Source: Gonapodya sp. JEL0774
Taxonomy: Eukaryota
Direction: 5' to 3'
Assembly (NCBI GenBank): GCA_027604505.1
Contig: JADIIX010000110.1
Span: 1-64,000, forward strand
DNA length: 64,000 bases
Below, piece by piece: positions 24,589-57,430 of the stretch. Numbering within the stretch: the first letter of the stretch is position 1; each line of letters begins with the position of its first letter. The translations under genes and the position numbers were made by a program. Below the pieces are notes generated by a model that was not told the DNA's origin, ran no database searches, and worked only from the letters and a program-made list of their open reading frames with translations.

Positions 24589-26626
24589 CTACGTTTCTGG
24601 TACTCTCGGAACAGCAACTCCCACCAACATATCACGGGTAATAAGACCTCGCAGCTTCTCCTCTGACCATTCCTCGGTACCTGTTGGTCGTGTCGGAATG
24701 ATGATGTACCGCATGAGTTAAAACGTGGGGGAAAGAGGGGGGAAGAGGAAGTACCTTTTGGTCGTGCTGGAATGACGATGTACCGCATGTCTGCTGTTGA
24801 ATCGCTACACGTGGGGGCAGGTGGTACATTTCACAACTTTTCGCAATGACAATCCCCCCTTCCAAAGCAACTCACTGCACACGCAATTCCACGTCTTCAG
24901 GGACAGTGAGCCCGAAGCTCTCATGCAAAAGACCTCTAGGGTCTGTGACGCACCTGCTTCGACTGTGAAAAGTAGTGACCAGAATGCTCAAACACAAGGA
25001 AAGAACAAGCCTACCCACTAAGAGCGGGACTTGTACCAATCAGGTGGGAGTCCCAACACCGAGCGAGGGTAGCACGAGCAGAGAGTGCATACAATTATCT
25101 GTGGCCAAGAGAATATCAAGTTATCACCTCAAAACAACGACCAGGAGGCACGAGGAAAGAAGGTGCAACGCACGTTGTGGACCTTTTCAGTGTTCTCCAC
25201 GGCCAATAGTTCGGTTTCCAAAGGGACCATGGGAGAAACAGCCTTGACTGCATCCTTCAACAGGAGAGCTTTGAATTCCGGATCCACCCATGCCTTGGCG
25301 ACAATGGTTGGCCCGTATCCTGAAGAGAAATAACAAAACCGATCTGGTTTGTGACAACAGTACACACAGCATGTAACTCATGATATTTCACCTCGCCCCT
25401 CAATTGCGTCCCTTCGTTCGACCAGCTCAGCAAGCTGCGCAGGCGTCGTGATGCCCTTCGTGATGCACGCCGCCAACAGACATTTGGCGAAATGCTCGTC
25501 GGGAGATTCGGGGCCCTCTCGGTCTACCGCCGTCTGTTCAACTTGAACTCGAGACTCGTGGACGTGGGGTGGGCCGCCGTCATGTGAGTGTGCGTGAGCA
25601 CTCTTTGCCTCCGAGTGGGAGTGATCATGGGATGAGTCATGATCGTGGGGTGCAGCGCCGTGAGCGTGCTCGTGGGGACTGTGATGATCGTGGGACCCAG
25701 AGCCGTGAGCGTGCTCGTGGGGACTGTGATGGTCACTTGCTTCGTTTGCGGTGCCTCCATCGATTTCCAACCAGTGCTGATAGATTTCGACATCTATGCT
25801 GTCGTTTTTGGGACCAGGGTAGGCTTTCCAGACCTCGCTCATAGGGAATCGCACCCTGTATAGCGGCTGTACTGCATCTGTGTTCACATTAAACGCAAGT
25901 GCCTCGGGATTTTTGAATACACCACAAACTCGTTCAATGACACCACGGGCGTTGTAGATGTAACCTGGCACTCTCAGATGAGGTTTCCGCCATCGTGATT
26001 TTGTTTGCTCTGGCTTGACTCGGACCATCTGGCCTTCAGAGAAACGAACAGTTGAATCGGAGGCAGGTGGGCCAAGCTGATTATCGAGGTCTGTTTGCGT
26101 CAAAGCGCCACTTTCCAAGAGCATACGACAGATAGAGGCTGCCCATTTTCCTTGAGGTGGGGGTGAAAGGGGGGGGGGAGATGAGCAGAGAGAGGGGAGA
26201 ATTGAATGTTTAACGAACCGTAGTAAGACCAATCTCGGTAAGTCTCCGGTTCAAGCCTATCGCAAATTACATGTATGAGCCACCGGAAACAGAGTGATCG
26301 AAGGGTGACAGACGTACTGTTCAACCCCTCTGCGGAGCATGTCGACGGTCATGTAACCCTTCGCTTGGGCTATTCCACGCAAGGCGTCAATCTGCTTTTC
26401 CCACAGTGCTTTCACATGATTGTCCAGTTTAAGCTCGGGTTCACTTGCGTTAACGGATTCATAAAGATTTGTTGGAGAAATTCAAAAGTGAGCTCACTCT
26501 GTGAGGACAACCCTACCCGTGTCTTGGGACGTGATAAGGAAACCAGAAGTGAGCTCACTCTGTGAAGACAACCCCACCCGTGTCATGGGGTCCACCAGTC
26601 GCTGGATTCCCAGGCCCTTGTAACAT
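24589..26626 (-). CDS. Fused nitrile hydratase (beta subunit, His-rich linker, alpha subunit), cobalt type; 8-9 introns
   Basis: Beta: [54 protein letters not shown]. Linker with 21 His. Alpha: [82 protein letters not shown]...TRDMLVGV. The frame is open through all GT-AG junctions. Confidence 0.95.
24677..24789. repeat. 39-bp direct repeat (35/39 identical, period 74 = intron length) across the last nitrile hydratase intron
   Basis: 24677-24715 vs 24751-24789, aligned by eye. Confidence 0.9.
26486..26589. repeat. 43-bp direct repeat (40/43 identical, period 61) duplicating the exon-1 end and 5' splice site of the nitrile hydratase gene
   Basis: 26486-26528 vs 26547-26589, aligned by eye. 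Confidence 0.9.
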
Positions 26627-28362: not shown

Positions 28363-30375
28363 ATGAATGATAAAACTCTGATAAGAGATGCTCTTTGCGC
28401 CCCCAAATCACCTCTTGAGGAAGAGATCGTCGATGTGGACCTCCTCGACTTGCTCAATGGCACTGACCTCCAACCAGTTGATCCAAGACCTGTCGCAGTT
28501 TCCGCGGAGCGAGCGCGAAATCCGGATAGCCACCATCGTCGGCAGAGGAAACGAGTATCACAACGAGCTCCCGCCGCCCCTAATCCCAAAATTTCGGAAA
28601 CGGAGGAGCCCACTGAATATGAAGTGAGCCAGAAATACAGAGCCCGACAGCTTGTACGACGATTTCATCGATTTCGCTCTACAGGTAGAGGCTATCAAGG
28701 GTAAGAAGGTGGAGAAGGTTGGGGGGAAGGTTAGTATGGGACCGCGATTTCGATTCTGCAATTTTACGACGATTTTGACGATGTGTTCAAGGCAAAAACT
28801 TTCTATTTGGTAATGTGGAAAGGATATGACCGGAACCATGACACATGGGAGGTGAGTGGACCGCAAATTTTGGTTTGTCGATTTACTTGTCATGTGGCCC
28901 TACGAAAAACCAGGTGGCTGCCAACCTCGCGGGCTCACCTGAGCTTGTCAACAAGTTTGAGAGAGTTTGGAAGCTGAAGCAAAGGACGGAAATCAAGTAT
29001 GGAGTGCTGGAACACCCAGTCAGTTTGTCCTCGGGGGAGGAGGACTCGGACGACGATGTCACGGTCCACTCTTTCGACTCGTTGGAGTCGGCGGGTACGG
29101 AAAAAACCGCGTCCACGAGTGAACCACGGCGTCGGTCGACAAAGAGGACGTCCAAGGGAAAGGAAATGGTATGTCTTATGTCGTTCTGATTTGCGTCAGG
29201 TTATAACTGATCCGTTTCGCGGTAAATTTTGCATCTAGGCGGTGGATGCTCCTCCAAGCTCTGCGGCTGAGGCTCGTGCGGCTCATTCCGAGGGTGTCCC
29301 CCGACGTTTTCCCCTTGTTGGTGGCGGGTATCGGTTGGATCTATCGCACCCACCTTCTGACCTAACGAATCAGCAGCGAGAGTGGCTAGTGGTGCTGGAA
29401 GGGGCTAAACTTGAGGCAGGTCGGACCTATGTGGCAAATGAATTCGACTTAGATGGTCCTCCCGACCACTTCACCTACATCACGGACCTCGAGTTTGCCA
29501 AGGGCATTGAGCGACCCTCCTCTCAATTTCTGGCAGGATGCGCGTGTGAGGCTTGTGATGTCGCGCACCCTGAGGCTTGTGATTGTCTCAAAGAGGACGA
29601 GATGAACAGTTTCGCCTACACAGCCACAGGGAAACTCATACGAAATAAAGGATGTGCCATTTTCGAATGCAATGTCAATTGCGCTTGCAATGTGGATCGA
29701 TGCTGTAATCGTGTGGTTCAGAAGGGCCGAGTCGTTGATCTCGAAATATTCAAATCCGACACAGACAAAGGCTGGGGTGTTCGTGCCCGGCAAGCGATAT
29801 CCAAAGGGACTTTTGTATCCGAGTACGTTGGAGTCGTCATCAAAAGAGCGACATATCAAAGGAAGACTCTGGAGAATCCCTACGACCCATCGGTGAACTA
29901 TGTGTTCGATATGGATTTCTTTGAACAACCCGTGAGCATCCGGCAGACTCGGTTGCTTTTTATTGTGCCAACTTCCTCGTTCTACCAGAAACATGCCATT
30001 GACGCATACGCTCGGGGCAATATCTCCCGCTTTTTGAATCATTCCTGCGAGTCGAATCTTCATGTACAAACCGTGTTTACAGACACAATCGCTGGAGATC
30101 TGCACCGTCTCGCGTTTTTTGCGTCGCGAGATATCGAAGATGGTGAAGAGCTGACTTTCGATTATCAGGGCGTGTGGGCAGCCTACGGGGATGAGGCGGA
30201 CGATGAGGAGCCGAGTGGCTTGAAGAAGCGGAAGAAAGCCGGGAATACTACCAGTCCCGTCAAGAAGCGCAAGAAATCGACGAAAGCAAAATCAGCGGGC
30301 GAGTCTTCAACCTCAAGAAATAGGAGCTGCATGTGTGGGAGTCAAAACTGCAGAAAAACATTGTGGTTCTCTTAG
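28363..30375 (+). CDS. clr4: Histone H3K9 methyltransferase Clr4/SUV39 type (chromodomain + pre-SET + SET + post-SET; multi-exon)
   Basis: EYEVEAI...YLVMWKGY...DTWE chromodomain; Cys-rich pre-SET, CCNRVVQKG, KGWGVRA, RFLNHSC, ELTFDY, CMCGSQNCRK. Confidence 0.9.
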
Positions 30376-32665: not shown

Positions 32666-35227
32666 TCACTCCACCCCATCGTACACCGAAATCGCTTTGT
32701 TGTCCAGCCCTGCCTTGATCTTTGCCGCCATGGCTTGCAGGCGGGCCTTCTCGGGGTACGGCGTGCCGGCGAGAGGGTAGTCCAGACCGAGTTCTTTCCA
32801 TTTCTGGGACAAGGCAAGGTATAGGGTGGGTTTCGGAATGTGTGATCCGTCAGTTCCACACTCCACCACCGTCTGACCACCACCGACAGCCCCCTTCCCC
32901 CCCCAACCCGCCCCCCGCACCCCCAACCCACATGCTCCCCCAACGTATGATAGGGCAGCAACTCGACCCTCTCGCACCCCTTCCCCCGTGTGTTGATCAT
33001 CTCCACCAGCTCGTCCACGTCCGTCTCGCGGTCCGTGAGGCCCGGGACGACCACGTAGCGGCACCACCAGGGGATCCGGCGCTCGTCGAGGTTGGAAATG
33101 AAGGCGTGGAGGCGGGAGAAGGAGCGGGAGGGGGTTTGGGTGATGTGGGAGTAGGTGGTGGGGTTGGTGCCTTTGATGCCTGGAGGGGCGGGGCGGCGGG
33201 GGCGGTGGGGCAAGGGGCAAGGGGGAAACCGGGAGCGGGGCAACGACAGGGCAAACACAACACGGGTCAGGCTCGTCTTTGGGCCCGAATAAAGCTCAGA
33301 CACCTTGTCTCTTCCCCCGCTCTGACAAGCTCCAGTGACCGACGACTCTTTGGTTCCCCCGCATCCCCTTGCCTCCTTCACCTCTCCTCACCCCCCCTTC
33401 ACCCTCCCTGCCCCCCCGCCCCCCGCCACCCAACCCCCCAACCCCCCAACCCACACAACAACACCAAATCCGTCCACGGCAACACCGTCTCCACGGCCCT
33501 CCTGGTGCCCAACCCGGTGGTCTCCACACACGTGTGCAGCCCGAGCTCCCTTTTGGCCGCGTACAAGAAGGCCGCGAGGAAATCGTGCTGGACCAGCGGG
33601 TCCCCGCCAGACACGGTCACGCCCCCGGAACCTACGGAGCGGGTGTAGTAGGGGAGGAGGCGGCGGGCGTGGGAGATGAGTTGGGAGACGGGCTGGGGGG
33701 GGGGGGGAGGGGGCANNNNNNNNNNGCCCCCCCCCCCCCCCCCCCGCGCGGCGCGTGCGCCCCGCCCCCGCCCCCGCCGCGCGCCCCCTCTCCCGGCCCG
33801 GGCGGGGGGGGGGGGGGGAGGGGGCAGAAGGCCCCGGACAAAAAACAGGCACACGTGCACGTCTGTCCCCACAAGCACACAATCGGGGCGAACCCGGTGG
33901 GCGTATCTAGTGGGGTGGGGGGCATTGCGCCGTCGTGGTGGCGTGGGGTTCAGTGCGTTGGGAGGAGCTCCACAGCGGCCTCAAGGACGAGAACGTGAAA
34001 AGATAGAAATAGGCGCACACGACGGCACGAGCATTGAAAAGAATGGCCCCAGCACAGAAAATCCCAAACCCACGCACCACAACCAAAAGGAATCGAAAAC
34101 CACATCCGCAACCGCGACCATAACCACACACAAAATCCGAAACCAAAACCAAAACCAAAACCAGAAACCCGAAACCAAAATAATAATCCCAAAGCAAAAC
34201 CACAATTGAAACCTAAATACAAACCACAACCAAACCACACCAAACAAACCAAACCCCAACACCAAACGCCAAACAAACCAAGCGCACCCAAATCAAAACC
34301 CCCCTACCCCCTACCCACTAATGCCCCACAAACAAACAATAACCACCACTCACGGTCAACTTCCCTCCCTTTTGCACGTCCCACGTGTCGGGGTTCTCGC
34401 AGTAGAGGCATCGGCACATGCAGCCTGGGAGTGAGGAGTGGGATTGGGGACGGGGGAGTGGGGATGAGGGGGATAAAATGAGTGTTGTGTTGGTCTTTCT
34501 CGGATGGGCAAGCCGGGACAATCTCCCCCAAAAAAAACAAGGGGTTCATTTGGTCCACATGGGCATCTCCGGCGCATCAGGCCCATATGGGCCGCTCCGG
34601 CAGCATCAGGCCCCATATGGACCGCTCACTCACTCACACTGCGGGGCAAAAATAAGCCCGAAAAGCCCGCCATCATCTCACTGACGTTGCTCGCACAAAC
34701 TGTCTGTCCATCAACAAAAAGGCAAGCGAGAGAGGCTCACCGGTCAAGAAGACGAGGAACCTGTTTCCGGGCCCCTCGAGGGAGCCCATGGACTCGGTGG
34801 AGTGGACGTAGCCCTGTACGTCCAAATAGTTGACAGCGGGCAAGGAGGGGTCGAATATGGGGTGAGAGGGGTCGTCGTGGGCGGGGTGGGAGAAGGCGAG
34901 GGCGTCGGGTGATGTGGCGGGGATGGGGGTGCGGAGGTGGGGGGAGACGGAGACGGGGTCGAGGTGGGAGGCGGGTGGTGGGATTGGGGAAGGGAGGGAA
35001 GGAGGAGAAGGGGAGGGAGGGGGCTCGTGAGCGAGGTGGATGGCGTGCGGGGAGAGAGGGATGATTTGCGGTGTGGAAGTGGGGGCAGGGGCGGAGCGAG
35101 AGAGGGGAGAAGAGGAGAGGAGGCGGAGGGATGAGGAGGGGGGGATGAGATTGGAGTTGGGGGGGTGGATGAGAGCGGAGAGGGAGCGGGATGCGCGGGG
35201 GGAGAGAGCGAGTGCGGATGCTTTCAT
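32666..35227 (-). CDS. pflA: Pyruvate formate-lyase activating enzyme (radical SAM) with long presequence-like N-terminus (5 exons; spans an N gap)
   Basis: GYVHSTESMGSLEGPGNRFLVFLTG/CMCRCLYCENPDTW (CxxxCxxC), GGVTVSGGDPLVQ, LHTCVET, RYVVVPGLTD, VELLPYHTLGEH/KWKELGLDYPL. Confidence 0.95.
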
Positions 35228-36494
35228 CTGTGCACCAAAGAAGGAATCAGGAAAGGGGGAAAGGGGGAAAGGGGGAATGGATTTGATGGGAACAGACAGC
35301 GCTGATGGTCCGACCTATTCTAACCTGTGCAGGTGGTAGTATGGGGTAGTATTGGGTAGTATGGGGTAGTACGGGGTGGGTGAGTCACGGGGTGTCACAA
35401 TCGCACCCCGCCATCAGCAACTCCCCCTCCGCCCCCCCGCTCTCCACTCTCAGTTCCCATCCGCACACGTTCAATTCCCGCTCTCCACTCTCTCCCTCTC
35501 TCTCCATTTTTTTTGTTCTCCCCTGCTTTCCATCTCCCCTCTCTCTTCCCCTTGTTCTTCTCTGGCTGTGGTCAAATGACTCACCAGCCCTCCCCTTCTG
35601 CCCGCCCGGCTCAAACCGCGTGTCCTTGATTGCACTCCTCTCAATACTTATCATCCTCGCCTTTTCCCCTTTCTCTCTTCCTCATTCTCTTCCTTTTATA
35701 TTCCTTCCTTCTCTCTCAACCCCCCTCTCCATGCTCAATTCAATTCTCCCTTCTCACTCTTCCATCCATTTCAATTCTATCGCTCCTCTCGCCGCTGCTC
35801 TCATCCCCCATCCTCCTTCCCCTATTCAATCTTATCCATCTCTCATCTCTCGTCTTCCTCGTCCTCTTCTCCCGCCGCCAAAGCCCTTCATCCCTCGCTC
35901 TGTCCTCTCCTCCTCCCCATTCTCATCATCCCCATCATTCAAGGTACGTCTATACAACTCTCACACCCCCATTTTAAACCCCCTTTCCCCAGCACTCTCT
36001 CTCCCTCTCTCGCACTCTCTATCCATCCACCCATCGCTTTCAGGACGCACAGCCCATCCCGATGACTCACCGGGCAACGGGTGGGTCGGGCACACCCCCG
36101 CCATCAGCACTCCCCCCGCTTTCAAATAATTGCACACATGTGCACGGACCACTCTCATGACTTTATGACTCATGGTCCGCAGGAACTCGGGATGCGAGGA
36201 GCTGTTTGGGAGATTTATCAATGGGCTGCGACTTTGTGTCGCCTGTTTTATTCGGGAGACGCTTTTTATTTTCAGTTCACCCTTGGCCTCTTCTGATCCT
36301 CACACAACTTTCTCTTTCTCTTCCCTCAAACTCTACTCCGCCCTTCTTGCTCTCATCCATCTCCAATCTCACTCCAAACAACACACTCAATCCCGCCTCG
36401 CCTCCTTCTCACACCTGCTTCACCCTTCACCCCTCAAACCAAACCCTACCCAACACCAACATCTACCCCGGTCCCAACCCTAATCCTCCCAAAG
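35228..36494. promoter_or_regulatory. Divergent pflA/pflB control region with four TGA(C/G)TCA sites, a duplicated CACCCCGCCATCAGCA module and a 10-bp tandem repeat
   Basis: TGASTCA at 35381, 35577, 36063, 36166; module at ~35404 and ~36093; (GGTAGTATGG)x4 at 35335-35376. Function is inferred. Confidence 0.5.
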
Positions 36495-39400
36495 TCCCGC
36501 ACCATGGCAACACTCGCCGCTTCCACCGTCACTCCCACGCTAGCCCAAGCAGCCCACGACCTCAAATACCCCCCGGGTCCCGAAATCAACGTGCAGAAGT
36601 GGAGTGAGTTGGGTTGTGGTTGCGGAAGTTGTTGTGTGTGTGATTGCGGGTTTGCGGGTTTGCGGTGGGCGGTCGTATTTTTTTGTTTCGGTGGAGGTGG
36701 TGTTGTCGGCTGGTGGTGGTGCGTCCACCAATGCACGTGCACATGGGACATGGGATATGGGACGGGGATCGCACGCGGCGCTCTGTTCCCTTGCCTTGCC
36801 TTGTCCTTGCCTTACCTCACCTTCCCTTCCCGTGTCTTCCCATCCCTTACCGCCCATCCCACCTCCCTCCCACCTTCCCTGCCCCCCCCCTCTAGTAAAA
36901 CAAAACTACACCCCCCACTCCACCGCGCCCACCTTCCTCGTCCGCACGCCGTCCCCTCGCACACAAGCCGTGTGGGCCAAGTGCACCGACCTGCTCGCGC
37001 AGGAGAGACAAAAGGGGGGCCTCTTGGACGTGGATTGGAAGACGCCCGGCACAGTGACCAGTCATGGGGCCGGTGAGTGAGGGGGGGTTCTGTCTGGGCG
37101 GTTTGGGGGGGGGGAGGGGGGGGGGGAGTGGTTTGGTGGTGGAAGAGCGGGAAATGGAACAAGTTGTGTGCAGTGGAGTCTGAAGCGAGTGGCATTTGAT
37201 TGGTCGGTCGACTCGGTGAGAGTCGGCCTGATCACTGATCACAGATGGACCGATGCGTGGATGTATGGAGACCATCTCCTTGCCGCGAATGGGTGTTTCC
37301 CCATCCTGCCGTGCCGCCGTCCCCCTGTGCTGTGCGCTGTTTGTGGCTCACCTCTCGTGCCCCTTCCCAACCATCCCCCATCCCCCGACCTCGTACGTAC
37401 GTCCACACCGCCACCGCCACCGCCACCGCGCACGCCCCACCCAACCACCCAACCACGCACCCACCCCCAGGCTACATCGACAAAGCCAACGAAGTCATCG
37501 TGGGCCTGCAGACCGACGCGCCGCTCAAGAGGGCCATCAAGCCGTTTGGGGGACTGGGGATGGTGAGTGTGCTGGGCACGATGCATGTGCGGGCTTTCGG
37601 CTCATTCTTTTGTGTTCTTCTCCCCCCCCATTGCTTCCGCCCGCCCCCCGACTCTCCCCCATAGGTCGAAGGCGCCCTCAAGGCCAACAACTACCCCATG
37701 GACCCTCTTGTGCACGAAATCTTCTCCAAGTACCGCAAGACCCACAACGAGGCCGTGTTCGACGTGTACACGTCCGAGATGAGGATGGCAAGGAGTAACC
37801 ACATCGTGACGGGATTGCCGGACGGGTACGGCAGGGGGAGGATTATTGGGGATTGTGGGTACTGCGTTGAGGAGGAGGGGGGGGGAAGTCGGAAGTGTGT
37901 GGTGGTGGCGCCCCCTCGTCGGGCTCTTGTTCTCATTCATTCCGTGGCACTCCCCCGTCAACACCACCCACCAACCCACCCAACCCACCCTACCCACCAA
38001 ACCCACCGCCCCCCCCTTCCCCCAGACCGCCGGGTCGCCCTGTACGGTGTCGACGCGCTGATCTCGCAAAAGCTTGCCGACAAGCACGCCCTGGGCCCGG
38101 TCTTCACGGACTCCAACATGATTGTCCGCGAGGAGATCGCCGAGCAGATCAAGGCGCTCAAACAGCTGAAGGAGATGGCCAAATCGTACGGGTTCGACGT
38201 GTCGAGGCCCGCGAAAGATGCCAGAGAGGCCGTGCAGTGGACGTATTTTGGGTACTTGGCCGCCGTCAAGGATCAGGGTGGGTAGTGGGGGTGGGGCGGA
38301 GGGCGGGGGGCGGGGTATTGGTTATGGGGGAGGAGGGGGGTGGACTGAAACCGTGAACAACGCATCAAACGGCTCACCCACCTGTCTGTGCGTTCTTGAC
38401 TGGATCGTGGGGATCTTTCTCACCCTTGCGATCTCTCCCACTCCGCATTCCACTGCCCCCCCCCTCCTTCCCCCCCCCCACAAAGACGGCGCCGCCATGT
38501 CCTTCGGCCGCGTGGACGCCTTCTTCGACGTGTACATCGAGCGCGACATCGCCGCCGGGAAACTCACGGAGGAAGAGGCCCAAGAGCTCATCGACCAGCT
38601 CGTGATCAAGTTGAGGCTTGTGAGGCATTTGAGGACGCCCGAGTATAACGGTGGGTAGGACAAGTGGTGGGGATCAGGGAAGGGAGGAGGGAGGGGTGTG
38701 TGTGGATAGGGGGACAAGGGATAGGTGGTGCGCGGGCAGGGCACGGGTTCTTGTTTTCTCGTTCGTCGTTCGATCGGCTGTGGATGTTGTTTCTAATTTT
38801 TGTCCCTTATGTTGTGGTTTGCTTTTCCGTGTATGTAGATCTCTTTGCCGGTGATCCGACCTGGGTCACCATGGTCATCGGTGGAGTGACCACGGACGGC
38901 CGGTCCATGGTCACCAAGACCGCTTACCGTATTCTCAACACGTTGTACACACTTGGACCTGCTCCGGTATGTGGTGCTGCTTTCTGCTTCTGTTTTCACT
39001 ACCTCTCGAATCCGCTCGGTGCTGACGGTTTCGTCGGGGGTGATCCGCACTCCTCCCTCCCATCCCACGCAAACCCCCAGGAACCCAACCTGACTGTCCT
39101 CTGGAACGACTCCCTCCCTGCCGACTTCAAACTCTTCGCGGCGCACACCTCGATCGACACGTCCTCGGTGCAGTACGAGAGCGACGCCCTCATGTGCGAA
39201 AGGTACGGAGACGACTACGCCATCGCGTGCTGTGTTAGCGCCATGACGGTCGGGAAGGATATGGTAAGTTTGGGCTCGGACTGGTGGGAGGGGGGGCTGG
39301 AGCGGGGGGGTGCCCGGGGGGGGTCCGGGGCTGAGGGAGAGCCCGTTGGATGGGCGTTGTAGAGGGTGTTACTTTTTTTTTTGTGTCGGTTGGTTTGACT

Positions 39401-41067
39401 GACTCCGTTCGTTTCTGTCGCCCAGCAATACTTTGGTGCCCGGTGCAACCTCGCCAAACTCCTCCTGTACGTGCTCAACGAAGGTCGCGATGAAGTGACG
39501 GGCAAGCAGGTTGGACCCGGATGGGGTCCTCTCTCCACCGGCGACGGTGCGCTCGACTTTGACGAGGTGTACGCCAAGTACGACAAGGCTATGGATTGGC
39601 TTGCGGCGTGAGTTGTTGTTGTCGCTCCACTTTGCGTGGACCTGGGATGGAAGGATTCGTGGGTTGACAATTGCGCCGTGCCAGGTTGTACGTCAACACC
39701 ATGAACGCGATTCACTGGAGTCACGACAAGTACTCGTACGAAGCGGTGCAGATGGCCCTTCACGACACCAAAGTAAGTTCGTCCGTGTTGCTCCATGTGG
39801 GAACAGTGATCCTAGTGTTAACGTCACCTGTCCACTTTCACTCCCAAGGTGCGCCGCCTCATGGCTTTTGGCATCGCTGGTCTGTCGGTCGTCGCAGACT
39901 CACTCTCGGCCATACAGAACGCCAAGGTGTACCCGATCAGGGACCCCAAGACTGGTCTGACAGTTGATTTCCGCGTGGAAGGAGGTGAGCCTGCCGCAGG
40001 ATTCTGGAACCTCGACTTTCAACGACAAGACGAGACTGACTCAATTGATTGTCTCGCCAGAGTTCCCCAAGTTTGGTAACGACGACGACAGGGTTGACAG
40101 GTTCGCGGCTGAGATTCCAGAGACTTTCCATGCGAAGCTCCAAGTCAACCCCACTTACCGCAGTGAGTGTAACACTATTATTTTGCTCTCAAATGCGAGT
40201 TTCTGTGCGAGCTCAATAATTTGCTACCTTGCAATAAAAGATGCGGTCCACACGCTCTCTGTCCTGACCATTACGTCAAACGTCGTCTACGTGAGCTCCA
40301 TACGTTTGAATCTTTTAACTCTTTCCCCCGGTTTAAATTCTTCCATCTTTCCAACCAGGGAAACGCCACCGGTGCCACTCCAGACGGTCGTAAGAGGGGT
40401 CAGCCATTCGCTCCAGGATGCAACCCAAGTAGGTACTTCGCAGCAATCTCCTTGTCGGTTGTAACGTGCATGTGACACTTTTTATGCTCCTTTAGTGCAC
40501 GGTCGTGAATTCTCGGGAGCAATTGGTGCGTTTCTCTGATCTGTCGAAGAAACCGTGCAGCAGAAATCTGCGTGCTAACTGCGGCCGTTACTTCTGACAA
40601 TTAGCGTCTCTAAACTCGGTGGCGAAAGTCCCTTATGATGCTTGCCGCGACGGAATCTCAAACACCTTCACGCTGGTGCCGAGTGTTCTCGGGCATCTTG
40701 CGGAAGAAAGGAACGCCAAGTAAGTTCAGTCTTCTACTTTTGAGCTTGTCGTTGCATCGTGAACTTTGTTTTGCTTGCTGTCCAAAAGCCTCGCCGCTAT
40801 TCTTGATGGTTACTTCCAGCAACACGCTTTTCACGTCAACGTCAACGTCTTGAAGCGCGAAACTCTCGAGGATGCCATGGCTCACCCCGAAAACTACCCC
40901 AACCTTACCATCCGTGTGTCTGGCTATGCTGTGAACTTCACCCGCTTGACACCGGCTCAACAACGCGAGGTCATTGCCCGCACGTGAGTGAACCGACCAA
41001 GTTTTTTGTTGAGGAACCGTCACCTGAAAGTCTCTGCGTTGTCAGCTTCCACGACCACATGCACTGA
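35731..41067 (+). CDS. pflB: Pyruvate formate-lyase (glycyl radical enzyme); core starts at ATG 36504, with an optional upstream presequence exon 35731-35943
   Basis: [79 protein letters not shown] (active-site CC), [15 protein letters not shown] (glycyl radical loop), VIARTFH. All junctions checked are GT-AG and in frame. Confidence 0.96.
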
Positions 41068-41438
41068 ACCGTTTGCTCGCGACGGTATAGATCGGTCACA
41101 TGTCAGCGTTTTTCCCTTTTCTGAACCACTCAACAAGAATAAGCATTTCGTTTCATGTCGCAAATTTCTTTCGATCTTCAGTGTAATCTGTAAATTAGAC
41201 CTTAAAAACAAGTATGATCCAAATTGTTGGTTGACCACCGGCGAAGAAAGTCCGTGCCACTTCCAGTTCCTGGGTGGTGGAGGCGGGGGAGAGATCACAA
41301 AGACGATTACCGTCATCAACATCTCATTAACAGCAGCTCATCAATCGTACACAAAAGGTCGCACACACTATCCCCCTACGAGTGGATTGCAGCCCTGCCG
41401 ACCATCTTTTACTACTCATCAGCAGCCTCGTACGGCAA

Positions 41439-42229
41439 ATGGATACACCCGCGGAAGATGATCTGTCGGTCATCCTCACAACGCAAGAAGGATTTGAGAA
41501 CTTCTGGCACTTCCTCGAGAAGGAAGTTGCTGTTGAGAACCTGATGGTGGGTTGGTTGGATCGCTTCATCAAATTGGGTTTGTCAGGAGGACCAACCCAT
41601 TGCCCGCCTTTAGTTCTGGAGAGAAGTTGAAGACTTCAGAGCGTACGCTGAAAAGGTGAGTCTGAGCATGGATCTACAATATCGAGATTCGTTGTTGCGT
41701 TCGTTGCGTTGGCTGCCATCTTCACCGCCAGCTGCCTGTCTCTGTTTACATACTTCACCAGGTTGTCCAATCCGCCAAAGACCGCGACGACATTGAATCC
41801 TCAGCACAAATTTTAATTCGTCGAGGACGCCCAATATTCGAAGAGTACCTCACTGCGGGATCCCGATACGAAGTGAACTGCCCGTCGTGGCAGCGAGCTC
41901 CCTTGCGGATGCTCTTCGAAAATCGAAAAGCTGGAACCCATCGAAAGCCCGCTCTCGAGGATTCCTTGCGAAAAACTACTGCCACTCGAATGAAGGATAC
42001 TGACTCGGATAGCATTTCCGTCAAGGATTCGGACAGGGATAGCCTTCGAAGTGTTGAGTCCATTGCTGCCGGCACCGAACGAGCTAAAGCTACGCCGGCA
42101 ATGTTCGACGCATGCCAAGCAGAAGTCTACAAAATGATGAATACCGACCTACGTCCCCGGTTCCTCAAGAGTCAGCACGGAGCAGCATGGAAGAAGGCGC
42201 GAGCCGAGAAGGGAACGTGGGAGCAATAA
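41439..42229 (+). CDS. Small RGS-domain protein (multi-exon)
   Basis: IL...EGFENFWHFLEKEVAVENLM/FWREVEDFR, IFEEYLTAGSRYEVN, MFDACQAEVYKMMNTDLRPRFLKS. Confidence 0.85.
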
Positions 42230-42738: not shown

Positions 42739-45117
42739 ATGGCACCACTCATTTCCGCTGTCGAGGTGCGCGCGAAACCAAATCTCCATCGCGCTTGATG
42801 GCATGACTCACAACCGCAGGACGGCCGTTCGTCTTCCCTAGGTATCGAAACACAATACCAAGTCAGATTGCTGGGTGATTCTTAACGGAGAAGTCTACGA
42901 TTTGACAAACTTCTTGCCCGAACATCCTGGTTCGTCCGCCATCATCTTACTCATTCCCGCTTGTGAGACCGATTCACACCATTGTCAAACTTCTTCCCTT
43001 TCACCCCCGTCTGACAATCTGCACGCGGACGTGTTGCTGCTCTTGTCATGCTAAAGCTGGTGCAAATATTATTCTGAAGTACGCGGGAAAAGATGGCTCG
43101 AAAGGTGAGACAAGGACGGGATCTTCACTGCTGCAGAAACACGATCGAGTTCATATCTCTGCTCTCGATGGTACACGCAATCCGACGACAACAGCTTTCA
43201 ACCCAATACACCCTTCTGACATCATCCAGAAGTTGCTGCCGGCAAATGTTCACAAGGGAAAGGTTGACCCGAAAACGATGGGAGCACAAGTCGTGGAGAA
43301 GCCCTCACAAGAGGAGTTGGACCGCCAGAAAATGGAAGCCAACAAGCCCCCTCTCTCGCAGATGCTGAATATGTGGGACTTTGAAGCGGTGGCCAAGCAT
43401 GTTTTGAAGAAGGAGGCTTGGGCGTACTACAGTTCTGGCGCCGATGACGAGATCACTCTCCGGTACGTATAGACGAGTTCCAGCCATCTTCTCAAATAGC
43501 CATGTTAAGCTTCCTCCACTCTCAGGGAGAATCATGCTGCGTTTGGCCGCATATGGTTGAAACCGCGTGTCCTCGTTGATGTGGCTCAAATCGACATGTC
43601 GACAACCATTTTGGGAGTGAAGACATCCATCCCGGTGGGTATGCTAAGTTCACTTTATGCGATTAACATAATGTCCTTAGAAAGGGAACGCTCTTCACAG
43701 CTCTACATCTCTGCAACTGCATTGGGCCGACTTGGGCACCCTGACGGCGAGTGCAACCTCACGAGGGCGGCATACACACACGATATCATCCAGATGATCC
43801 CAACTCTGGCGAGCTGCACCTTTGATGAGATTCGTGATGCTGCTCAAAAAGGGCAACCTCAGTTTATGCAGCTGTATGTGAACAAAGTAGGTACTGCATC
43901 AATTTCGAAGTCTGCTATGTACAATTAATGAGAATCTTATTTTACAGGACCGCAAAATAACGGAAGCAGTTGTTAAGAAAGCGGAAGCCGCCGGTTGCAA
44001 GGGCCTTTTCATCACTGTCGACGCACCGCAGCTTGGACGAAGGGAGAAGGTATCGTGATGCTGATGTTACCTTTTTGGGAGCCTGACTCATGTTCTATGC
44101 CGTCTCCCAGGACATGCGAATGAAGTTTGCTGACGCCGATGACACAGCCATCCAAAAGAGTGTTGGGGATCGTGTGGAGCGTAACCAAGGCGCTGCTCGC
44201 GCTATTTCTTCATTCATTGACCCCAGCCTGAAATGGAGTGACATAGCGTGGTTCAAGTCCATCACCAAAATGCCCATCGTCTTAAAGGGCGTGCAGTGCG
44301 CGGAAGATGCTGTACTTGCTTACCAACATGGATGCGCTGGCATTGTCCTCTCAAACCACGGTGGGCATTTTCATTGAAGCACCATACAGGAGGAGTACGC
44401 TCCCTAATATTTGATTCGATTGAACTCTTCAGGTGGTCGTCAATTGGACTGGGCTCGATCGGGTATCGAAATCTTGCCGGAAGTAATGGATGGTGAGTCT
44501 TTTGAATTAAAAAGTCCACAACGAGCACGCAGTAACAGTCTATTTAGCTCTTGACGCAATTGGTGCTCGTGACAAGCTTGAAGTTTACGTTGATGGTGGT
44601 GTTCGGAGGGCGACGGATATCCTCAAAGCCGTCGCTCTGGGCGCAAAGGCAGTCGGAATCGGTGTGTGCTTGGGATTCAGCCTCGTTCAAAACTTTTCTT
44701 CGCTGATCTCAAGACTTGCTTTTGGGGACCAGGTCGTCCACTCTTATATGCAATGTCGGCGTACGGCCAAGCCGGTGTAGAAAGGGCTCTGGACCTTCTG
44801 AAGGACGAATTGGAAATGAACATGAGGCTGATGGGCACTCCCACGATTAAGGACATTACAAAGTCGCACGTTATCACTGACAACCTGAACAAGGTATTGA
44901 ATAGGCTGGACTTCGAGGAAGTAATACACCGGATTAACAAAGCTCCACCCATTAATGCCCTTGCAGCACATTTCGTTTGTAGAAGACTTCAGCTTGAATG
45001 GTGTGGTGAGTACCAAACCATGAAGGTGTTTTCCAATCTTTTGAATTTTGAATGTTGGTTTCCGATTTCTCGGAACAGTACGAACGAGCACCTGTCAGTG
45101 GGATTCCGAAACTGTAG
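42739..45117 (+). CDS. Flavocytochrome b2-like L-2-hydroxyacid (L-lactate) dehydrogenase: cytochrome b5 + FMN domain (multi-exon)
   Basis: [86 protein letters not shown]; ends ...SGIPKL*. Confidence 0.92.
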
Positions 45118-50472: not shown

Positions 50473-52615
50473 CTGGGAGGGATCCTAATATATAGTACAC
50501 ACATTCCTTGTCAACTCCTTCATCAAAGTGTGGACAAGTACAAGCAAAGTCTATGGTGAGAGCTGCAAAAAGGCAGAGAGAACTGAACTGGGGAAAAAAA
50601 GCAAATATCAGGTGGAAGTCCAGGATAGGTTCTGTGATGTGGGAGCAGCAAGTGGTGTTGGATACATATTGTTGTGTGCATGTGTGTGTCATGTGTTGTA
50701 TATATTTGTATGATAACTCACTGCACATAGATGAGTGTGCCAGCTGTATATTATATTGAGTTCCACACAAGGAAGGGCACGTGTTTTCTGACAGGTTATG
50801 AGCCTGGAGTAATAAGGATTACTCCAATTGGAATACTGGAACAAACTATTGAATCACTTGATGTGATTTCCCCTGATTTCCCTCTTGCTGCAAATCCTTC
50901 TCAAACACTGGCATTGGTGCCACAGAAAACCACCTACACTCTTTATGTGTGAGCGTATGTTGAGAGAGGATCCTCCATATTCTCGCAACTGCCTTCCCCA
51001 CCAGCTAGGTCCGCATCTGAAAACTCCTCTGGACCCTGGTCATGCTGAGATGCACATACCCATCCCCATTCATCTCGCTGCCCATGGATGATTAGAACAC
51101 ATGGCTCCCCACCCTGAACACTCTCCAAAGGGTACTCTGCATCTGACTCTCCCCTGCGGAAACACTGAACCACGACAGCAAAGACAACTACTCAGAACTG
51201 GAGTACCACAATGACTGGCGCCAGGTCCAAGATTTTGAAGATTGATGGTCAACTGGGGGGCGGGGGCGGGGGGGGGGGGCGGGGGGGGGCGCGCGGGCGC
51301 GGGGGGGGGGGGGGGGGGGGGCGGGCGGCGCGGGGGTATATTTGATGGGGATGGTNNNNNNNNNNCCTGCCGACCACACTCCACACCCCAAAGGCACTCC
51401 CCCGCAATGCGCCTTTGCTCCGGCACACCTGCTCCACACCCGCCAAAACCCTGCCCCAAGAAACCAGCCCCCCTCTCTATGCTCACTGCACACCATTACC
51501 AAGAGAACCTTCCCCTCCCCCCCCAGCAACTGCTGTCCAACCAACTACCCTCTACCCCCTCTCCAACCATTGTCTATCTGCTCAGCACCACAACGTACTC
51601 ACCAACCCCCACACAACCCTTGCACACCATACCCCTCCCCTCCCACCAGACGCCCCTCCACGGACCCTTCCTCCCCCCAAACAAACCTCCTTCCACCACT
51701 CCCCTTTGCTTACTTCCATCCCCAACCACCGCTCCCACACCTCCTTGATCCTGACACAACCCAAGTGGAGGCACATATTACAAAGGCACAATTGGCAGCC
51801 CTGGATGAGTAACAAAGAGAAAGGAACAGATCTGGGAGGAAAGAAAACGGAACAAGGAGGCAGACACCTGCCGAGCAAGGTCATAGTGGAGCAGCAATGG
51901 GCCTGGACAAAGGTGTAAGAGGCACTCAGGAAGAAGATCACCATTGCAGAGCTCACCACGACAGGCGCAGTGGTGCAAGGTGTGATTTTTCTCTGGCTTG
52001 ACTCCCTTACTGCATCAGCCAACCCCCAGCCTCCTCCTTACTGAGTCCCCCCACCATCACCACTACTTGCCCCTATCAGGAACACATGCCTGCTCTGCCG
52101 TCACCCCAATCAAAGTGGACAACTCCTGATCTTCCCCCCTCAGGGAACCTGCCTCCCATATCCCCCTCCGTGCCAAGCCCCCATTTGGACACAGAAGGCC
52201 GCAGTACCATGGCCGTTGACCCCAACACCTCAGTGCCCTCCCTGTTTGAACGAGACATTGGAGGCACCTCCTGAAGTGAGTAGCCTTGGTCCCCCCTGAA
52301 CGCACACTTGAGAGCTTGCCACACTGGTTGGAACTCAAAGCACTGGAAAATGCGGTCCTGCTCTACATCTATGACATTCTCAGGAACATCATGATCAGCG
52401 TGAATGTGGACTACATTAACCACATCCTTTCCAAATCCTCCCTCCCCTCCTCCCCACTCAGCGCAGCCCCAGCCCTGACAAGCACCCAACTGCATGTACC
52501 TGAGCCGCACTCAGCCTCCCCAACCCCACAGACATGGAGGAAGTGGACTTTGAGGTCAACAAAAACATGCTGGAGGCATCCACAACAGCGACCCTTCACA
52601 GCCGGACCTGGGTGT

Positions 52616-52770
52616 GGCTGAGGACGTGTCCCGTGCACCTGTGTGCAGGCTTCTGACCACCTCTCCCTCACTATCGTTGCAGGTGGGATCCGCTGGGTCA
52701 GGGAGTTGGGGTGGATCTGACCTCTCCCTCACTATTGTCGCAGAGCGGATAGTGCGGGGTTTTTTGTTTC
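52616..52770 (+). repeat. Ngaro split direct repeat A1 (partner A2 at ~57131-57256)
   Basis: Shared GGCTGAGGAC...GCAGGCTT...TCACTATCGTTGC.GGTGGGATC...GGATCTGACCTCTCCCTCACTATTGTCGCAGAG.GGAT. Confidence 0.85.
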
Positions 52771-55700
52771 AGATCACCTCTCATGTTCTTCTTCCCCTTC
52801 CACCCATCTCTTCTCCCTCTCAGCACGGGGCTCGTTTTTTCTTCTCTATACCACCCAACACTGCTTTCTCATGCCCAACCTTCCTCACTTCCCCCTTTTC
52901 ACAGCTACTTCCGGCTCGAATCTCCCCCCTGCCAATGTCTCTGCACTCCCCTTCCAAACAACTTCTCCACCTCATACTACAGTGTCTAGACCAGGCCAAC
53001 ATGACCCACCAATCCTCAGAGATGTCTCGGCTTGCAACGGCTGTGCAGCAAGCTGAGCAGGAGCAGGTCCGTGATACACAGATTGCCACTCAAACCGCAT
53101 GGATCGACGCCCTCCAGGTGCAAGTTGAGATCCTTCTGAGCCTTCAGTTGCTGTCTCGCGACTCCGCGCCCCTGGTCCCTGGGGCGATCCCTCCTGCCTG
53201 TCCCAACCTTCTCTGCACATTTGATGATGTTCCCCTGGATTCCTTCTCTACCAATCCGGGCTCTTCTGATGCCGCCTCTGTGCCTTCTGGAACTTTGTGC
53301 ACCGCCAATCTGGCTCGGGACATTAACACAGCTGCTGTGGAGGTGCCGATCCATTGGGATGTGCCTTCTACTTCTGATACCACCCTGTTGGGTGGCCCAC
53401 AAATTGGTGAGTCGCTGACCTTTGCAGAGATCATGGATCAGCTCCCTCAATACCTTTGGAGCTTGCCGTATGTTCCAGATCCAATCCCGGCGGGGCCGTA
53501 CAAATGGGCAGATTGGGGAGATCTGAAAGACTTCTCTGTGGGCGCTGAGCTTGAAATCATTTTGTGTTGTGATCTTGACTTGGGTAATATCTCAGGGCCC
53601 TGTGCATCCATTATCAAGCACAGATCCCTGCAGTCGCTCTGGGTGGCCTCCAGCAACCTCATCTGCTCCCATAGTTCCTGTGGTGTCCCTTGAGGAGGTC
53701 AGCAGTCCTACTTGATCTGTCTCCAGCAGCTGCAGATGCACTACAGAATCAGATGGCAACAAATTGTCGTTCTTGACAATGATCTCCAGGCTGCCCAGCA
53801 CATTGCCGGCTTTGCCTTTCATGATCACCAAATCTGGACATCATTCGCTACTCTCCTCGTTGACACTCACAACAGTGCTCTATGGTCTGGGAGAGACATC
53901 GACAAGGCCAAGAAGCCTTCATATTGTCACAAGTACAATAGCGTGAATGGTTGCACAGTCGCCAACTGTAAGTGTCCTCACGTTTGCCGCAACTGTCGGG
54001 ATGGACACCCTGCTTCTGCATGTCCCGCCGCCACCCCTGGGGCCCCTCTGGGTGATCTTGTCGCTGGTGATGGGGCCCCTGTCACCGGTCTCCCTGCCAC
54101 TCAGCGCCCCACGAGGAGGAATCGGGGGCAGTGGCCTTCCTCCTGGGGTCTGCGCAGGGGCGTTTTGCCCATCTGGTGAGATTCCGCGTGAGCTGCTGCA
54201 TACTGGGGACTCTTTGAATTTGAACAGTTCGAATTTTGAGCTGAGTTGTTTGGATCGTCGTTTATTGTCCGCAGGAGAGATTGCAGATGTTGATTACGTT
54301 TGGGATGGGGTTTGATTTGGTTTTTGCACATTTGATTTTGGTATGGAAGAGCCATGCCCGCAGTTTGCTTTTGAAACAGATAACTTTGGTTTGACAGGAC
54401 CGGGCGGTGCGGCGTTGAAGGTGGCATTTGAGCAGGATATCGATAGTCAAGGACACATCAAAAGGTACATTCCGCATCATCACAGATTGCAGTAAGCCAG
54501 AGGGGCTAGCCCCCAACACTCGGTGTGTGGAAGCAGCAGTTGCCTATGAGAGGCACGACGTCTTGCGTCATGCTATTTTCGAGGCCGGTTGCAGCTGCCT
54601 CATTTCTGTTCGGGACATTTCAGCTGCTTACTGTCATGTTCACATTCACCCGGATGAGTACCTGTATTATTTCATTTTTCACCCTTCTTTTGGTTACTAT
54701 GTGGACCCTCGCTTGTCGTTTGGTATTTGCAAGGCATGCTTCACTTTTTCGGCAATTGGGAGGGTTATTTGGTTGATTTTGCGTTTGAACTACAGCGTTA
54801 CTTGGACTTTCATCTACTTGGATGATTTCCTTAATGTCCATTGTTCCCGTCCCTCTGCCTTGGCGGAGTTCCATATCCTTGGCGAGACTTTAGCTTTGCT
54901 CGGCTTGCCTCCTAACATCCCAAGGACCAACCTCCGAGCACTCAGGCACAGATCCTTGGTTTTGTCTACGACACTGCAGCACGGACCATCACACTCCTGG
55001 CTGGTTGTCACTCCCTTGTTCTCGATCTTCTCCACACCACTCTTGCTTAGTCCAAGGTGACTTGGCAACACCTCGAGCGTCTGCTTGGGTACCTTTCGCA
55101 TATCTCTGACATTGTCTACAGTGGCCACACCTTTGTTCAGCGCTTCATTGACCTCGCCACCAGTCTGCGCCGCCTGTTCCATGAAGTTCGCCTCACTGTG
55201 GACACTCGACGGGACCTCCAGTGGTGGATCAATTACTTGCCAGGTTCTCAGGGTGCCTGACCATTGTACAATCTTTCTCGCCCCTGGGCGGCAGGTGTGT
55301 TGCAGAGAGACACTGCTACGTCAGCTGGCTTTGGCTGGGTATAGCCCAAGTCATCTGGCAGTTCTCTGGACTCAAGTGGGACCCAATGGCTGAGGGGAAT
55401 TCACAACTCGGGATCCTCTCAACTTCACACGGTTGCCTCCCCCACGCCTCCCCATAGGGGTGAGGTATCTGGGTACTTATGTGCATGCAATTCAGTCACT
55501 GACTCTCTGCCTCCCTCTGTCCCTCTTTCTCCTATGATTGTCTGGCGTGGCAAGTACACGGGCCGGTGCACAGCTGACTTCCACTCTGGCTGGTTTCATG
55601 CTTACCTGGATGGAGCAAACATCAACATTCTCGAGTTGGTTTGTATCCATTTGGCAATCTCCGATCTGGTCCCCTCTCTCGCTGGAATGTGGATCTGGGT

Positions 55701-56976
55701 GCAAACAGATTTGGGAGTTGCACAGGCGTGGATCAACACAGGCATAGCACAGAGTGACCCTCATGCAATGGACCTTTTGCGCAATCTCTTCTACTTATCT
55801 GCCTGATACAGTTTCCATGTCTCCGCTGTGCATCTTGCGGGCGGATAACTCCCTGGCGGTTCTCAGAGTTTGCTGACTGTTGGTTTACTGCTTCCCCATT
55901 CCCTTTGTCCCTCAACCCAGCAGCCGAGTTTGGTGACGAGTCTGCCTTCTTTGCGACCTCCACAGCATCCTCATAGAAGACGCATCTCCACTCCTACATG
56001 CAGTTTTTTGTCCACTTTGCCATTCTCCCCGCCCTTCCAGCCCCTCTCCTTGCTGTCTGGTTGTGGGTCTTGCTCCTCTCTTGTTCTGTCAAGCCCACGT
56101 CAATCCATGAATACGTTGGCAGGCTCAAGGCGTTTCACCTGCGCCATTGCCTGCCTGCCCCCTGGGTCGGGGACTGGCAGCTTGCTCACTTCCTGAAGGC
56201 AAACCACCCAAGCATGCCGCTGTCCTCTCCATCTCCAAAGACTCCCATCTTCTTGCTGGCCTTGATCGCTCACAACTCGCTGACTCCGTCCTGTGGCCTC
56301 TATCGCAAGTCCAATCTTGGCGTCAAGTCCGCCAATCTCCAGTGGCAGGCTCTCAACTGGGATGACCTGTGGCTCTCACCCGATAGCTGCGTCCTCTGGT
56401 GCCATGTGTGTGGATCCAAGACTCTCCAGGACTGCTCCTGGGTCATCACTCATCTGCTGGTTGTGATCCCTGGCACACTCATTGATCCAGCCTGTGCCTA
56501 TTTGCACGTTTGTTCCTTCTCCTCTGCAGAGTCCGCTTTGCCTGTCACCTATCACTGGCTCGAGTCCTCCCTTTGTGCCGTTGTCACCCGCACCCGTGTG
56601 GCCCCGTCCTCCGGCATCTCCACCTGGCATAGCTTCCATGCCTTGAGGGCTTCTTTTGCTGTCTGTGTTGGGATGCCTGACAGCTGGATTCAGATTGTTG
56701 GAGATTGGAAATCCAATGTGTTTTTGGTCTACCTCTGGCTCTCCGATCAAGACAAGTTGGCGGAGGTGGAAAGGTTTGCCGCCCAGGCCAGGGGCGCTGG
56801 GGGCAAGTGCGTTGTAGTGCTGGTGGTTTGGGAGAGTGGGTGCTTGGGATGTGGCGCGGAGTGAGATGATGTTGGCGTCTGTGTGTGTGTTTACCTTCGT
56901 GGTACTGGTGTTCTTTCTTTCTTTTCTCTTTTCCCCTCTGTCTCCCCTGTTCTCTCCCTCTCTTAGTGGTGCCCTT

Positions 56977-57430
56977 GGTGACGGGAGGAGCTGGGGGACT
57001 ACCCTCGCCCTCCTGCCCGGTTTTAGCCAGCCTTGTGTTGTATCCCAGTGGCGTTTCCCACTGTTCCCTCCTCCTCTCTCGTGGACCGTGCACTAGGGCG
57101 TGTCTTGGAGCCATGGCCAGACCCAGAGGCGGCTGAGGACAGGCCCTGGGCAGGCTTGTCCCCACCTTTCCGTCACTATCGTTGCGGGTGGGATCTGACC
57201 TCTCCCTCACTATTGTCGCAGAGTGGATTGGGTGCCCTCGTGGGTTTTTGTTTTTCTCTGATGATACAATGGCGGCGTGAGGGGCTCAGGGATTACCTTT
57301 GCCCTCCTGCCTGGTTTCAGCCAGTCTTGTCCCCCTCCATCAGCATTGCGTTGTGTCCCAGTGGCGTTTCCCCACTGTTCCCTCCTCCTCTCTAGCGGCT
57401 TGCAGACTGTACACTAGGGCCTGTCTGACC
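56977..57430 (+). repeat. Ngaro 3' repeats B1 (~56977-57105), A2 (~57131-57256), B2 (~57271-57426)
   Basis: B copies share GCCCTCCTGCC.GGTTT.AGCCAG.CTTGT and CCCAGTGGCGTTTCCC(C)ACTGTTCCCTCCTCCTCTCT...CACTAGGGC.TGTCT. Confidence 0.85.

What the first reader, a model, noticed from the sequence alone, without database searches (positions are those of the whole stretch)
35731..36506. Hidden presequence exon on PFL: likely organellar and cytosolic isoforms from one gene
Seen: ATG 35731 opens 71 codons ([11 protein letters not shown]...SRLPRPLL...[17 protein letters not shown]; Ser/Pro/Leu/Arg-rich, no Asp or Glu) ending at a GTACGT donor (35944). A CTAAT branch site and AAG acceptor (36494) splice it in frame to TCC CGC ACC ATG, giving ...[10 protein letters not shown]..., with Arg just before the second Met as in mitochondrial processing sites. 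AAG acceptors are used elsewhere in this gene. The 551-nt intron holds its own promoter-like module and a CT-rich leader. Known: PFL is O2-labile and occurs in more than one compartment in anaerobic gut fungi and Chlamydomonas. Inference: alternative transcription starts give a mitochondrial and a cytosolic PFL.
Basis: partly seen in the sequence, partly recalled or inferred. Interest (0 to 1): 0.85.

Follow-up and report, generated by a model that had tools for sequence, protein, structure and literature searches.

The report
Hidden mitochondrial leader exon on PFL
In a water-dwelling fungus, the gene for the oxygen-sensitive fermentation enzyme pyruvate formate-lyase has an unannotated upstream stretch with good splice signals that would add a leader ending in a mitochondrial-type cut site, so the gene likely makes a mitochondrial form and possibly also a shorter cytosolic one, but no RNA evidence was available.

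Summary
The coordinates are right: ATG 35731, 71 codons, donor 35944, acceptor 36494, in frame with Met2 (36504) of an intact PFL gene in a Gonapodya-type fungus. The public model starts at Met2.

All three frames of this CT-rich stretch are open and free of Asp/Glu, and the peptide is no more presequence-like than shuffled sequence (z 0.12).

Better support came from elsewhere:
- The donor plus in-frame ATG is rare by chance (0.1-5%).
- Only 1 of 11 AG sites gives an open frame into PFL.
- The junction forms the only R-3-type motif in the N-terminus, spaced like the one in the Cladochytrium orthologue, whose model has a presequence.
- The divergent activase gene has an obligatory presequence-like leader in both Gonapodya species.

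A 14-nt element sits upstream of each start. A mitochondrial long form is about 60% likely and two forms about 45%. Leaky scanning rivals alternative transcription starts. No RNA run was listed and no relative's DNA could be read. The design is well known in fungi; four searches found no paper on it for PFL. The scan noted a similar exon on xylose reductase in another genome.

The parts
35731..35943 (+). Predicted unannotated exon 1 of PFL (71 codons), the candidate mitochondrial presequence; ATG in weak context (T at -3)
   Evidence: splicing and translation not shown
35944..36494 (+). Predicted 551-nt phase-0 intron: GTACGT donor (7.2 bits), CTAAT at 36480, AAG acceptor (5.8 bits); only 1 of its 11 AG sites gives an open frame into PFL
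36495..36506 (+). Ser-Arg-Thr linker and Met2 in strong context (ACCATGG); with the next residues it forms the only R-x-[FLYM]-[AS]-[TSN] motif of the long N-terminus
36504..41067 (+). PFL coding region from Met2: 18 exons, 758 aa, Cys418-Cys419 and glycyl Gly732; first 752 aa identical to public model P0121
35406..35419 (+). Copy A of a 14-nt exact repeat, with GGGTGGGT and TGACTCAC (reverse strand) just upstream; lies between the activase and PFL starts
36063..36172 (+). Intronic copy B of the module (TGACTCAC 36063, GGGTGGGT 36079, 14-nt repeat 36096, TGACTCA 36166); candidate second promoter. GTGGGT at 36081 also scores as a donor (9.1 bits)
36225..36503 (+). 279-nt ATG-free, pyrimidine-rich stretch following 7 ATGs; candidate 5' leader of a short transcript
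32666..35227 (-). Divergent PFL-activating enzyme gene, 5 exons, 393 aa, identical to public model P0152; about 135-aa N-terminal extension, next Met at 147 inside the catalytic domain
35228..35324 (-). Probable 97-nt 5'-UTR intron of the activase gene, ending directly at its ATG
   Evidence: not shown by RNA

Best explanation
The stretch 35731-35943 lies in frame with PFL across good splice signals and is likely a real first exon whose 74-residue product would carry PFL into the mitochondrion and be cut at the Arg-Thr-Met site, while Met2 likely also serves as a second start that would give a leader-less, cytosolic PFL. Shown: the splice signals, the frame, the two start contexts, the duplicated element and the activase leader. 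Inferred: splicing, import, cleavage (MPP after Thr, then removal of Met, the R-3 pattern) and use of Met2. The short form would come from a promoter inside the intron (duplicated element, ATG-free leader), from leaky scanning past the weak first ATG, or from both; I weigh these about equally. In the mitochondrion the enzyme would meet its activase, which is transcribed divergently from the same intergenic region, and make acetyl-CoA and formate from pyruvate when oxygen is low.
For: - The donor scores within the range of the real donors and is the only good one in 35400-36060.
- Donor plus in-frame ATG ORF arises in 0.1-5.4% of simulations.
- 1 of 11 AGs gives an open frame, and it has CTAAT at -15.
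- The junction creates the only R-3-type motif of the long N-terminus; Arg triplets are 2-3% of that DNA.
- The Cladochytrium orthologue P0002 (83% identical, sister to the two Gonapodya proteins, SH-aLRT 100 in a quick tree) has about 105 residues without Asp/Glu. Its motif lies 32 residues before the conserved INV, against 27 here.
- The activase has a leader with no downstream Met before its domain here, in G. prolifera (P0153) and in an unnamed relative (P0314). The window's activase leader scores above shuffles (z 1.9, p 0.03).
- For a second start: Met-Ala-Thr-x-Ala-Ala is kept in both Gonapodya proteins while the next residues diverge; ACCATGG context; 14-nt repeat; 4 of the window's 16 TGACTCA sites lie in this 1.3 kb (motif chosen after seeing it); 0 ATG in 279 nt after 7 ATGs in 165 nt.
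Against: - The 71-aa peptide is no more presequence-like than shuffles in any frame (z 0.12, p 0.44).
- It has no Arg/Lys before residue 41, 16 Pro, and a low hydrophobic moment in its first 30 residues (0.34, against 0.65 for the activase; though 0.36 for Cladochytrium).
- It is longer than the 20-60 residues given as typical (PMC7723863, passages).
- It has no similarity to the Cladochytrium leader (E 1.2).
- The intron has no G in bases 7-46, whereas the other 17 PFL introns have 10-68% G there.
- Three AGs in the intron score higher as acceptors (35992, 36107, 36043) and would put ATG1 out of use.
- Both public Gonapodya models start at Met2, and the Nowakowskiella PFL model has no presequence-like leader.
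- A single-start activase argues against a working cytosolic PFL unless another activase exists; the genome could not be searched.
Confidence: 0.45

Rival explanations
1. The intron is real but lies in the 5' UTR. Transcription starts downstream of ATG 35731, or that ATG is not used, and only the Met2 protein is made. It stays in the cytosol or enters the organelle without a cleavable leader.
For: An in-frame ATG upstream of a given donor arises in 20-35% of simulations. The peptide looks like chance translation of CT-rich DNA. The activase gene appears to have a 5'-UTR intron ending at its ATG. Gut-fungal PFLs were predicted cytoplasmic by DeepLoc yet are modelled in hydrogenosomes (PMC8561657, Table 3 passage).
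Against: It leaves the Arg two codons before Met2 (2-3% by composition) and its match in position to the Cladochytrium motif unexplained. It puts a leader-less PFL beside a leader-bearing activase.
Confidence: 0.28
2. Only the long, mitochondrial form matters. Met2 is just the residue at the processing site, and the intronic module is an enhancer shared with the activase gene, not a promoter.
For: The activase has one start and a leader. The Cladochytrium model has no Met between residues 5 and 168. Conservation of Met-Ala-Thr could reflect the cleavage site.
Against: Strong context at Met2 and weak at ATG1; ATG-free 279-nt leader; duplicated element inside the intron.
Confidence: 0.17
3. There is no upstream exon. 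PFL is transcribed only from the second module, the first module serves the activase, and 35400-36060 is intergenic CT-rich DNA with a chance donor, or a non-productive transcript spliced at other sites.
For: Higher-scoring acceptors and a second donor (36081) exist, and none keeps ATG1 in frame. The intron's 5' end is atypical in G content.
Against: A donor of 7 bits or more arises in only 1-15% of simulations, and with an in-frame ORF in 0.1-5.4%. Branch site and acceptor sit 9 nt before Met2.
Confidence: 0.1

Closest known systems
Single fungal genes giving mitochondrial and cytosolic isoforms by alternative TSS: Kluyveromyces marxianus BAT1 (10.1101/2022.04.27.489738, abstract read) and Cryptococcus MAE102 (PMC11302930, passages read)
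   Same: One gene, two in-frame starts separated by a targeting leader, and a downstream transcription start that skips the leader.
   Different: Those are shown by TSS mapping and fluorescent fusions. Here the leader is on its own exon, the second promoter would be intronic, and nothing is shown by RNA.
Dual-AUG leaky-scanning genes of Cryptococcus, e.g. aminoacyl-tRNA synthetases (PMC7049704, passages read)
   Same: Weak first AUG with U at -3, a leader, and a strong in-frame second AUG.
   Different: There the leaders are MitoFates-positive and ribosome-occupied. Here the leader scores like shuffled sequence on my composition test, and T/C at -3 is expected 80% of the time in this DNA.
PFL/PFL-AE of anaerobic gut fungi (Neocallimastigomycota) (PMC8665504, PMC8561657, passages read)
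   Same: Same fungal PFL clade (7 of 27 rows, SH-aLRT 99); PFL reported in both cytosol and hydrogenosome; the related activase P0314 has a leader.
   Different: Caecomyces has 21 PFL-homologous genes, so compartments may be served by paralogues; their PFLs have short N-termini. Here one gene would serve both compartments (copy number untested).
Chlamydomonas PFL1 (PMC3660698, PMC6856725, passages read)
   Same: One PFL reported in two compartments.
   Different: Mitochondrion and chloroplast, not mitochondrion and cytosol.
Cladochytrium tenue PFL model P0002
   Same: 83% identical sister protein with a leader and an R-3-type motif at a similar distance from the conserved core.
   Different: Its leader is Ala-rich, not alignable to exon 1, and the model has no second Met; it is a computed model too.

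Membership tests
Pyruvate formate-lyase (TIGR01255) | Score above the curated cut-off | tested here: met
   P0121 scores 1058 bits against a cut-off of 994; first 752 aa identical to my model
Pyruvate formate-lyase (TIGR01255) | Cys-Cys active site and C-terminal glycyl-radical motif | tested here: met
   Cys418-419 and Gly732 in the short model; Pfam PF02901 and PF01228 on exons
PFL-activating enzyme (TIGR02493) | Score above cut-off and CxxxCxxC motif | tested here: met
   271 bits against 231.75; motif at residue 164
Cleavable mitochondrial presequence | Net positive charge, few acidic residues | tested here: inconclusive
   5 basic and 0 acidic residues in 71 aa, but the other two frames are also acid-free with 3-4 basic residues
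Cleavable mitochondrial presequence | Positively charged amphiphilic helix near the N-terminus | tested here: not met
   No Arg/Lys in residues 1-40; moment 0.34 in residues 1-30; best window (0.73, residues 36-46) holds 3 Pro. Crude test; the Cladochytrium leader also scores 0.36
Cleavable mitochondrial presequence | R-2/R-3 processing motif before the mature protein | tested here: met
   The only R-x-[FLYM]-[AS]-[TSN] match lies at the junction. R-2/R-3 rule from PMC7723863; the exact pattern is my own, recalled, and it missed 3 of 7 comparison leaders
Cleavable mitochondrial presequence | Directs import and is cleaved | not testable with these tools
   No TargetP/MitoFates on hand; needs a reporter or N-terminal proteomics
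Alternative-TSS dual-localised gene | Two in-frame starts flanking a targeting leader | tested here: met
   In frame only after the predicted splice
Alternative-TSS dual-localised gene | Two mapped transcription start clusters | not testable with these tools
   No RNA holder was listed
Alternative-TSS dual-localised gene | Layout conserved in related genomes | not testable with these tools
   No eukaryotic genome DNA on hand; the metagenome scan gave 4 intron-less, bacterial-type loci

The most novel reading that the evidence does not exclude
One PFL gene in a free-living aquatic fungus switches between a mitochondrial and a cytosolic enzyme through two copies of the same promoter module, one shared with its activase. 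This would be a single-gene forerunner of the cytosol-plus-hydrogenosome PFL system of anaerobic gut fungi, and would mean that these mitochondria already run glycyl-radical fermentation in low oxygen.
Probability: 0.25. Interest if true: 0.6.

Novelty: new member of a known kind. Interest (0 to 1): 0.38.

Why it matters
If true, both public Gonapodya PFL models miss their targeting exon, and a monoblepharid fungus keeps PFL and its activase inside mitochondria. That bears on how hydrogenosomal PFL metabolism of gut fungi arose from ordinary mitochondria, and on how an oxygen-labile radical enzyme and its single activase are shared between compartments. The gene design itself (two starts around a leader) is common in fungi, so the gain is a new case and an annotation fix, not a new mechanism.

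Tried and rejected
- RNA: no RNA holder was listed for 35300-41100; this is no evidence either way, and no reads could be laid.
- Genome: none is held for this window, so PFL and activase copy number is untested.
- Metagenome scan with exon 3: 4 loci of 387 candidates, all continuous bacterial-type PFL frames.
- 50%-identity representative search: nothing on fungal leaders among the three sequences I retrieved from it.
- ESM Atlas: no usable hit for exon 1. Pfam: 0 families on it.
- Triplet periodicity could not separate coding from non-coding, because the positive control failed too.
- My first repeat test was dominated by a CT microsatellite; I discarded it and redid it with four-base words.
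- Asp/Glu absence, the open frame and the weak -3 base were rejected as evidence that the exon is real.
- A PTS2-like motif (consensus recalled) was not found in the long PFL N-terminus or the activases.
- The tree is a quick IQ-TREE run with SH-aLRT only; the careful search did not finish. It used 27 chosen proteins.
- Literature: PFL+Gonapodya (4 papers listed), PFL+Monoblepharid (1 paper, passages irrelevant), Gonapodya+anaerob+ferment+mitochondri and PFL+alternative transcription+targeting showed no report of this exon, judged from listings. Stairs 2011, Akhmanova 1999, Boxma 2004 and Gelius-Dietrich 2004 were not read; a related commentary was not held. No supplements were read.
- Earlier scan notes on this genome and on PFL held nothing on this locus.

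Full report
Setting. The window is eukaryotic. Exon joining by coordinates gives an intact PFL gene on the plus strand: 19 exons with the proposed first exon, 832 aa long, 758 aa from Met2, stop at 41065-41067. The first 752 residues of the short model are identical to public model P0121, named as from a Gonapodya species, which starts at Met2 and runs on into an RGS-like neighbour. P0121 passes the TIGR01255 cut-off. A PFL-activating enzyme gene is transcribed divergently from ATG 35227; my 393-aa model equals public model P0152 and passes TIGR02493. The G. prolifera PFL and activase have consecutive accession numbers, which suggests the same adjacency.

The observation. Several of the arguments are empty, though. 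The region is about 80% pyrimidine, so all three frames are open and free of Asp/Glu. Given the donor, an in-frame ATG of at least 20 codons appears in 20-35% of simulations. Against a composition model built from 7 comparison leaders, exon 1 scores like its shuffles (z 0.12), while the activase leader, left out of the model, scores modestly above them (z 1.9, p 0.03). Exon 1 has no Arg or Lys before residue 41 and 16 prolines. Periodicity was uninformative because the control failed.

What does exceed chance. With a matrix from 21 donors of the two genes, 35944 scores 7.2 bits and is the only good donor between 35400 and 36060. GTACGT also looks like the donor in the neighbouring cytochrome b2-like gene at 43463. 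Such a donor arises in 1-15% of simulations, and with an in-frame ATG ORF in 0.1-5.4%, depending on the region chosen. Of 11 AGs in the intron, only 36494 gives an open frame into PFL, though three score higher as acceptors. The 9 nt between acceptor and Met2 place an Arg two codons before Met; Arg triplets are 2-3% of this DNA, and the result is the only R-3-type motif in the long N-terminus (the rule is from PMC7723863 passages, the pattern is mine).

Comparative evidence. In a quick tree of 27 proteins the two Gonapodya PFLs group with a Cladochytrium PFL (SH-aLRT 100), within a fungal clade that includes the gut fungi (99). The Cladochytrium model has about 105 acid-free residues ahead of the core, and its R-3-type motif lies 32 residues before the conserved INV, against 27 in the window. 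The leaders themselves do not align. The Nowakowskiella and gut-fungal PFL models lack such a leader. The activase has a long leader with no alternative Met before the domain in the window, in G. prolifera and in an unnamed relative. Since PFL needs its activase in the same compartment (established knowledge; PMC6856725 passage for the requirement), a leader-less PFL beside a leader-bearing activase is a mismatch that exon 1 would resolve. This is the strongest argument for the long form, and it is indirect: the activase's location is itself predicted.

A second start. Met-Ala-Thr-x-Ala-Ala is kept in both Gonapodya proteins while the following residues diverge. Met2 has ACCATGG and ATG1 has T at -3, with no ATG between them after splicing. 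A 14-nt exact repeat lies at 35406 and 36096, reached by at most 1 of 300 simulations and 1 of 100 window block pairs. Each copy has GGGTGGGT and TGACTCAC nearby, and 4 of the window's 16 TGACTCA sites lie in this 1.3 kb (resemblance to AP-1/Gcn4 sites is recalled, and TGACTCAC is also the reverse complement of the donor consensus). Seven ATGs in 36060-36224 are followed by none in 36225-36503, as a second leader would need. This fits an intronic promoter, as in K. marxianus BAT1 (abstract) and Cryptococcus MAE102 (PMC11302930 passages), and equally leaky scanning, as in Cryptococcus dual-AUG genes (PMC7049704 passages). Against a useful cytosolic form: the activase gene seen has a single start, and I could not search for another. 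The two modules could also simply be one for each gene.

Weighing. Both forms 0.45; long form only 0.17; UTR intron with Met2 only 0.28; no upstream exon 0.10. These are judgements, not computed values. No RNA holder was listed and no relative's DNA could be read, so the two decisive checks remain open.

Novelty. One gene with two starts around a mitochondrial leader is a known fungal design, and PFL in two compartments is reported for gut fungi (PMC8665504 passages) and Chlamydomonas (PMC3660698 passages). Searches showed no paper on this exon or on monoblepharid PFL localisation, within an open-access library that lacks the main older papers.

Noticed in passing
window 40984-42229: Public model P0121 skips the last PFL exon (41046-41067) and fuses PFL to a downstream RGS-domain gene; the G. 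prolifera orthologue ends normally, so this is probably an annotation error.
   Followed up: partly
window 34830-35227 (-): The activase N-terminal extension (about 135 aa) has two blocks conserved with G. prolifera after the likely presequence (around residues 55-66 and 108-135), which suggests a retained part of unknown role.
   Followed up: partly
window 35335-35384: Four 10-nt tandem copies in the activase 5' region, next to the first promoter-like module.
   Followed up: no
proteins P0005, P0122, P0123: Gut-fungal PFLs carry a conserved N-terminal nonapeptide matching a PTS2-like pattern (consensus recalled), although they are described as cytosolic or hydrogenosomal.
   Followed up: no
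proteins P0002 and P0136: The Cladochytrium PFL groups with Gonapodya, not with the Nowakowskiella PFL, which hints at paralogy or transfer among zoosporic fungi (quick tree).
   Followed up: partly
protein P0165: An unnamed 1064-aa protein that appears to fuse PFL with a C-terminal activase domain (read by eye).
   Followed up: no
window 51300-57400: A broken element with zinc-knuckle-, reverse-transcriptase- and tyrosine-recombinase-like motifs (recalled), possibly a decayed DIRS/Ngaro-type retroelement; Pfam gave no significant match on 4 frames.
   Followed up: partly
window 42739-44900, 15990-17540, 25381-26250, 29239-30375: Neighbours: cytochrome b5 plus FMN dehydrogenase (cytochrome b2-like), malic enzyme, nitrile hydratase beta, and a Pre-SET/SET protein.
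   Followed up: partly
window 36604-39425: The 5' PFL introns are longer, mostly G-rich at the 5' end and C-rich at the 3' end, while the last nine are 62-79 nt and balanced.
   Followed up: no
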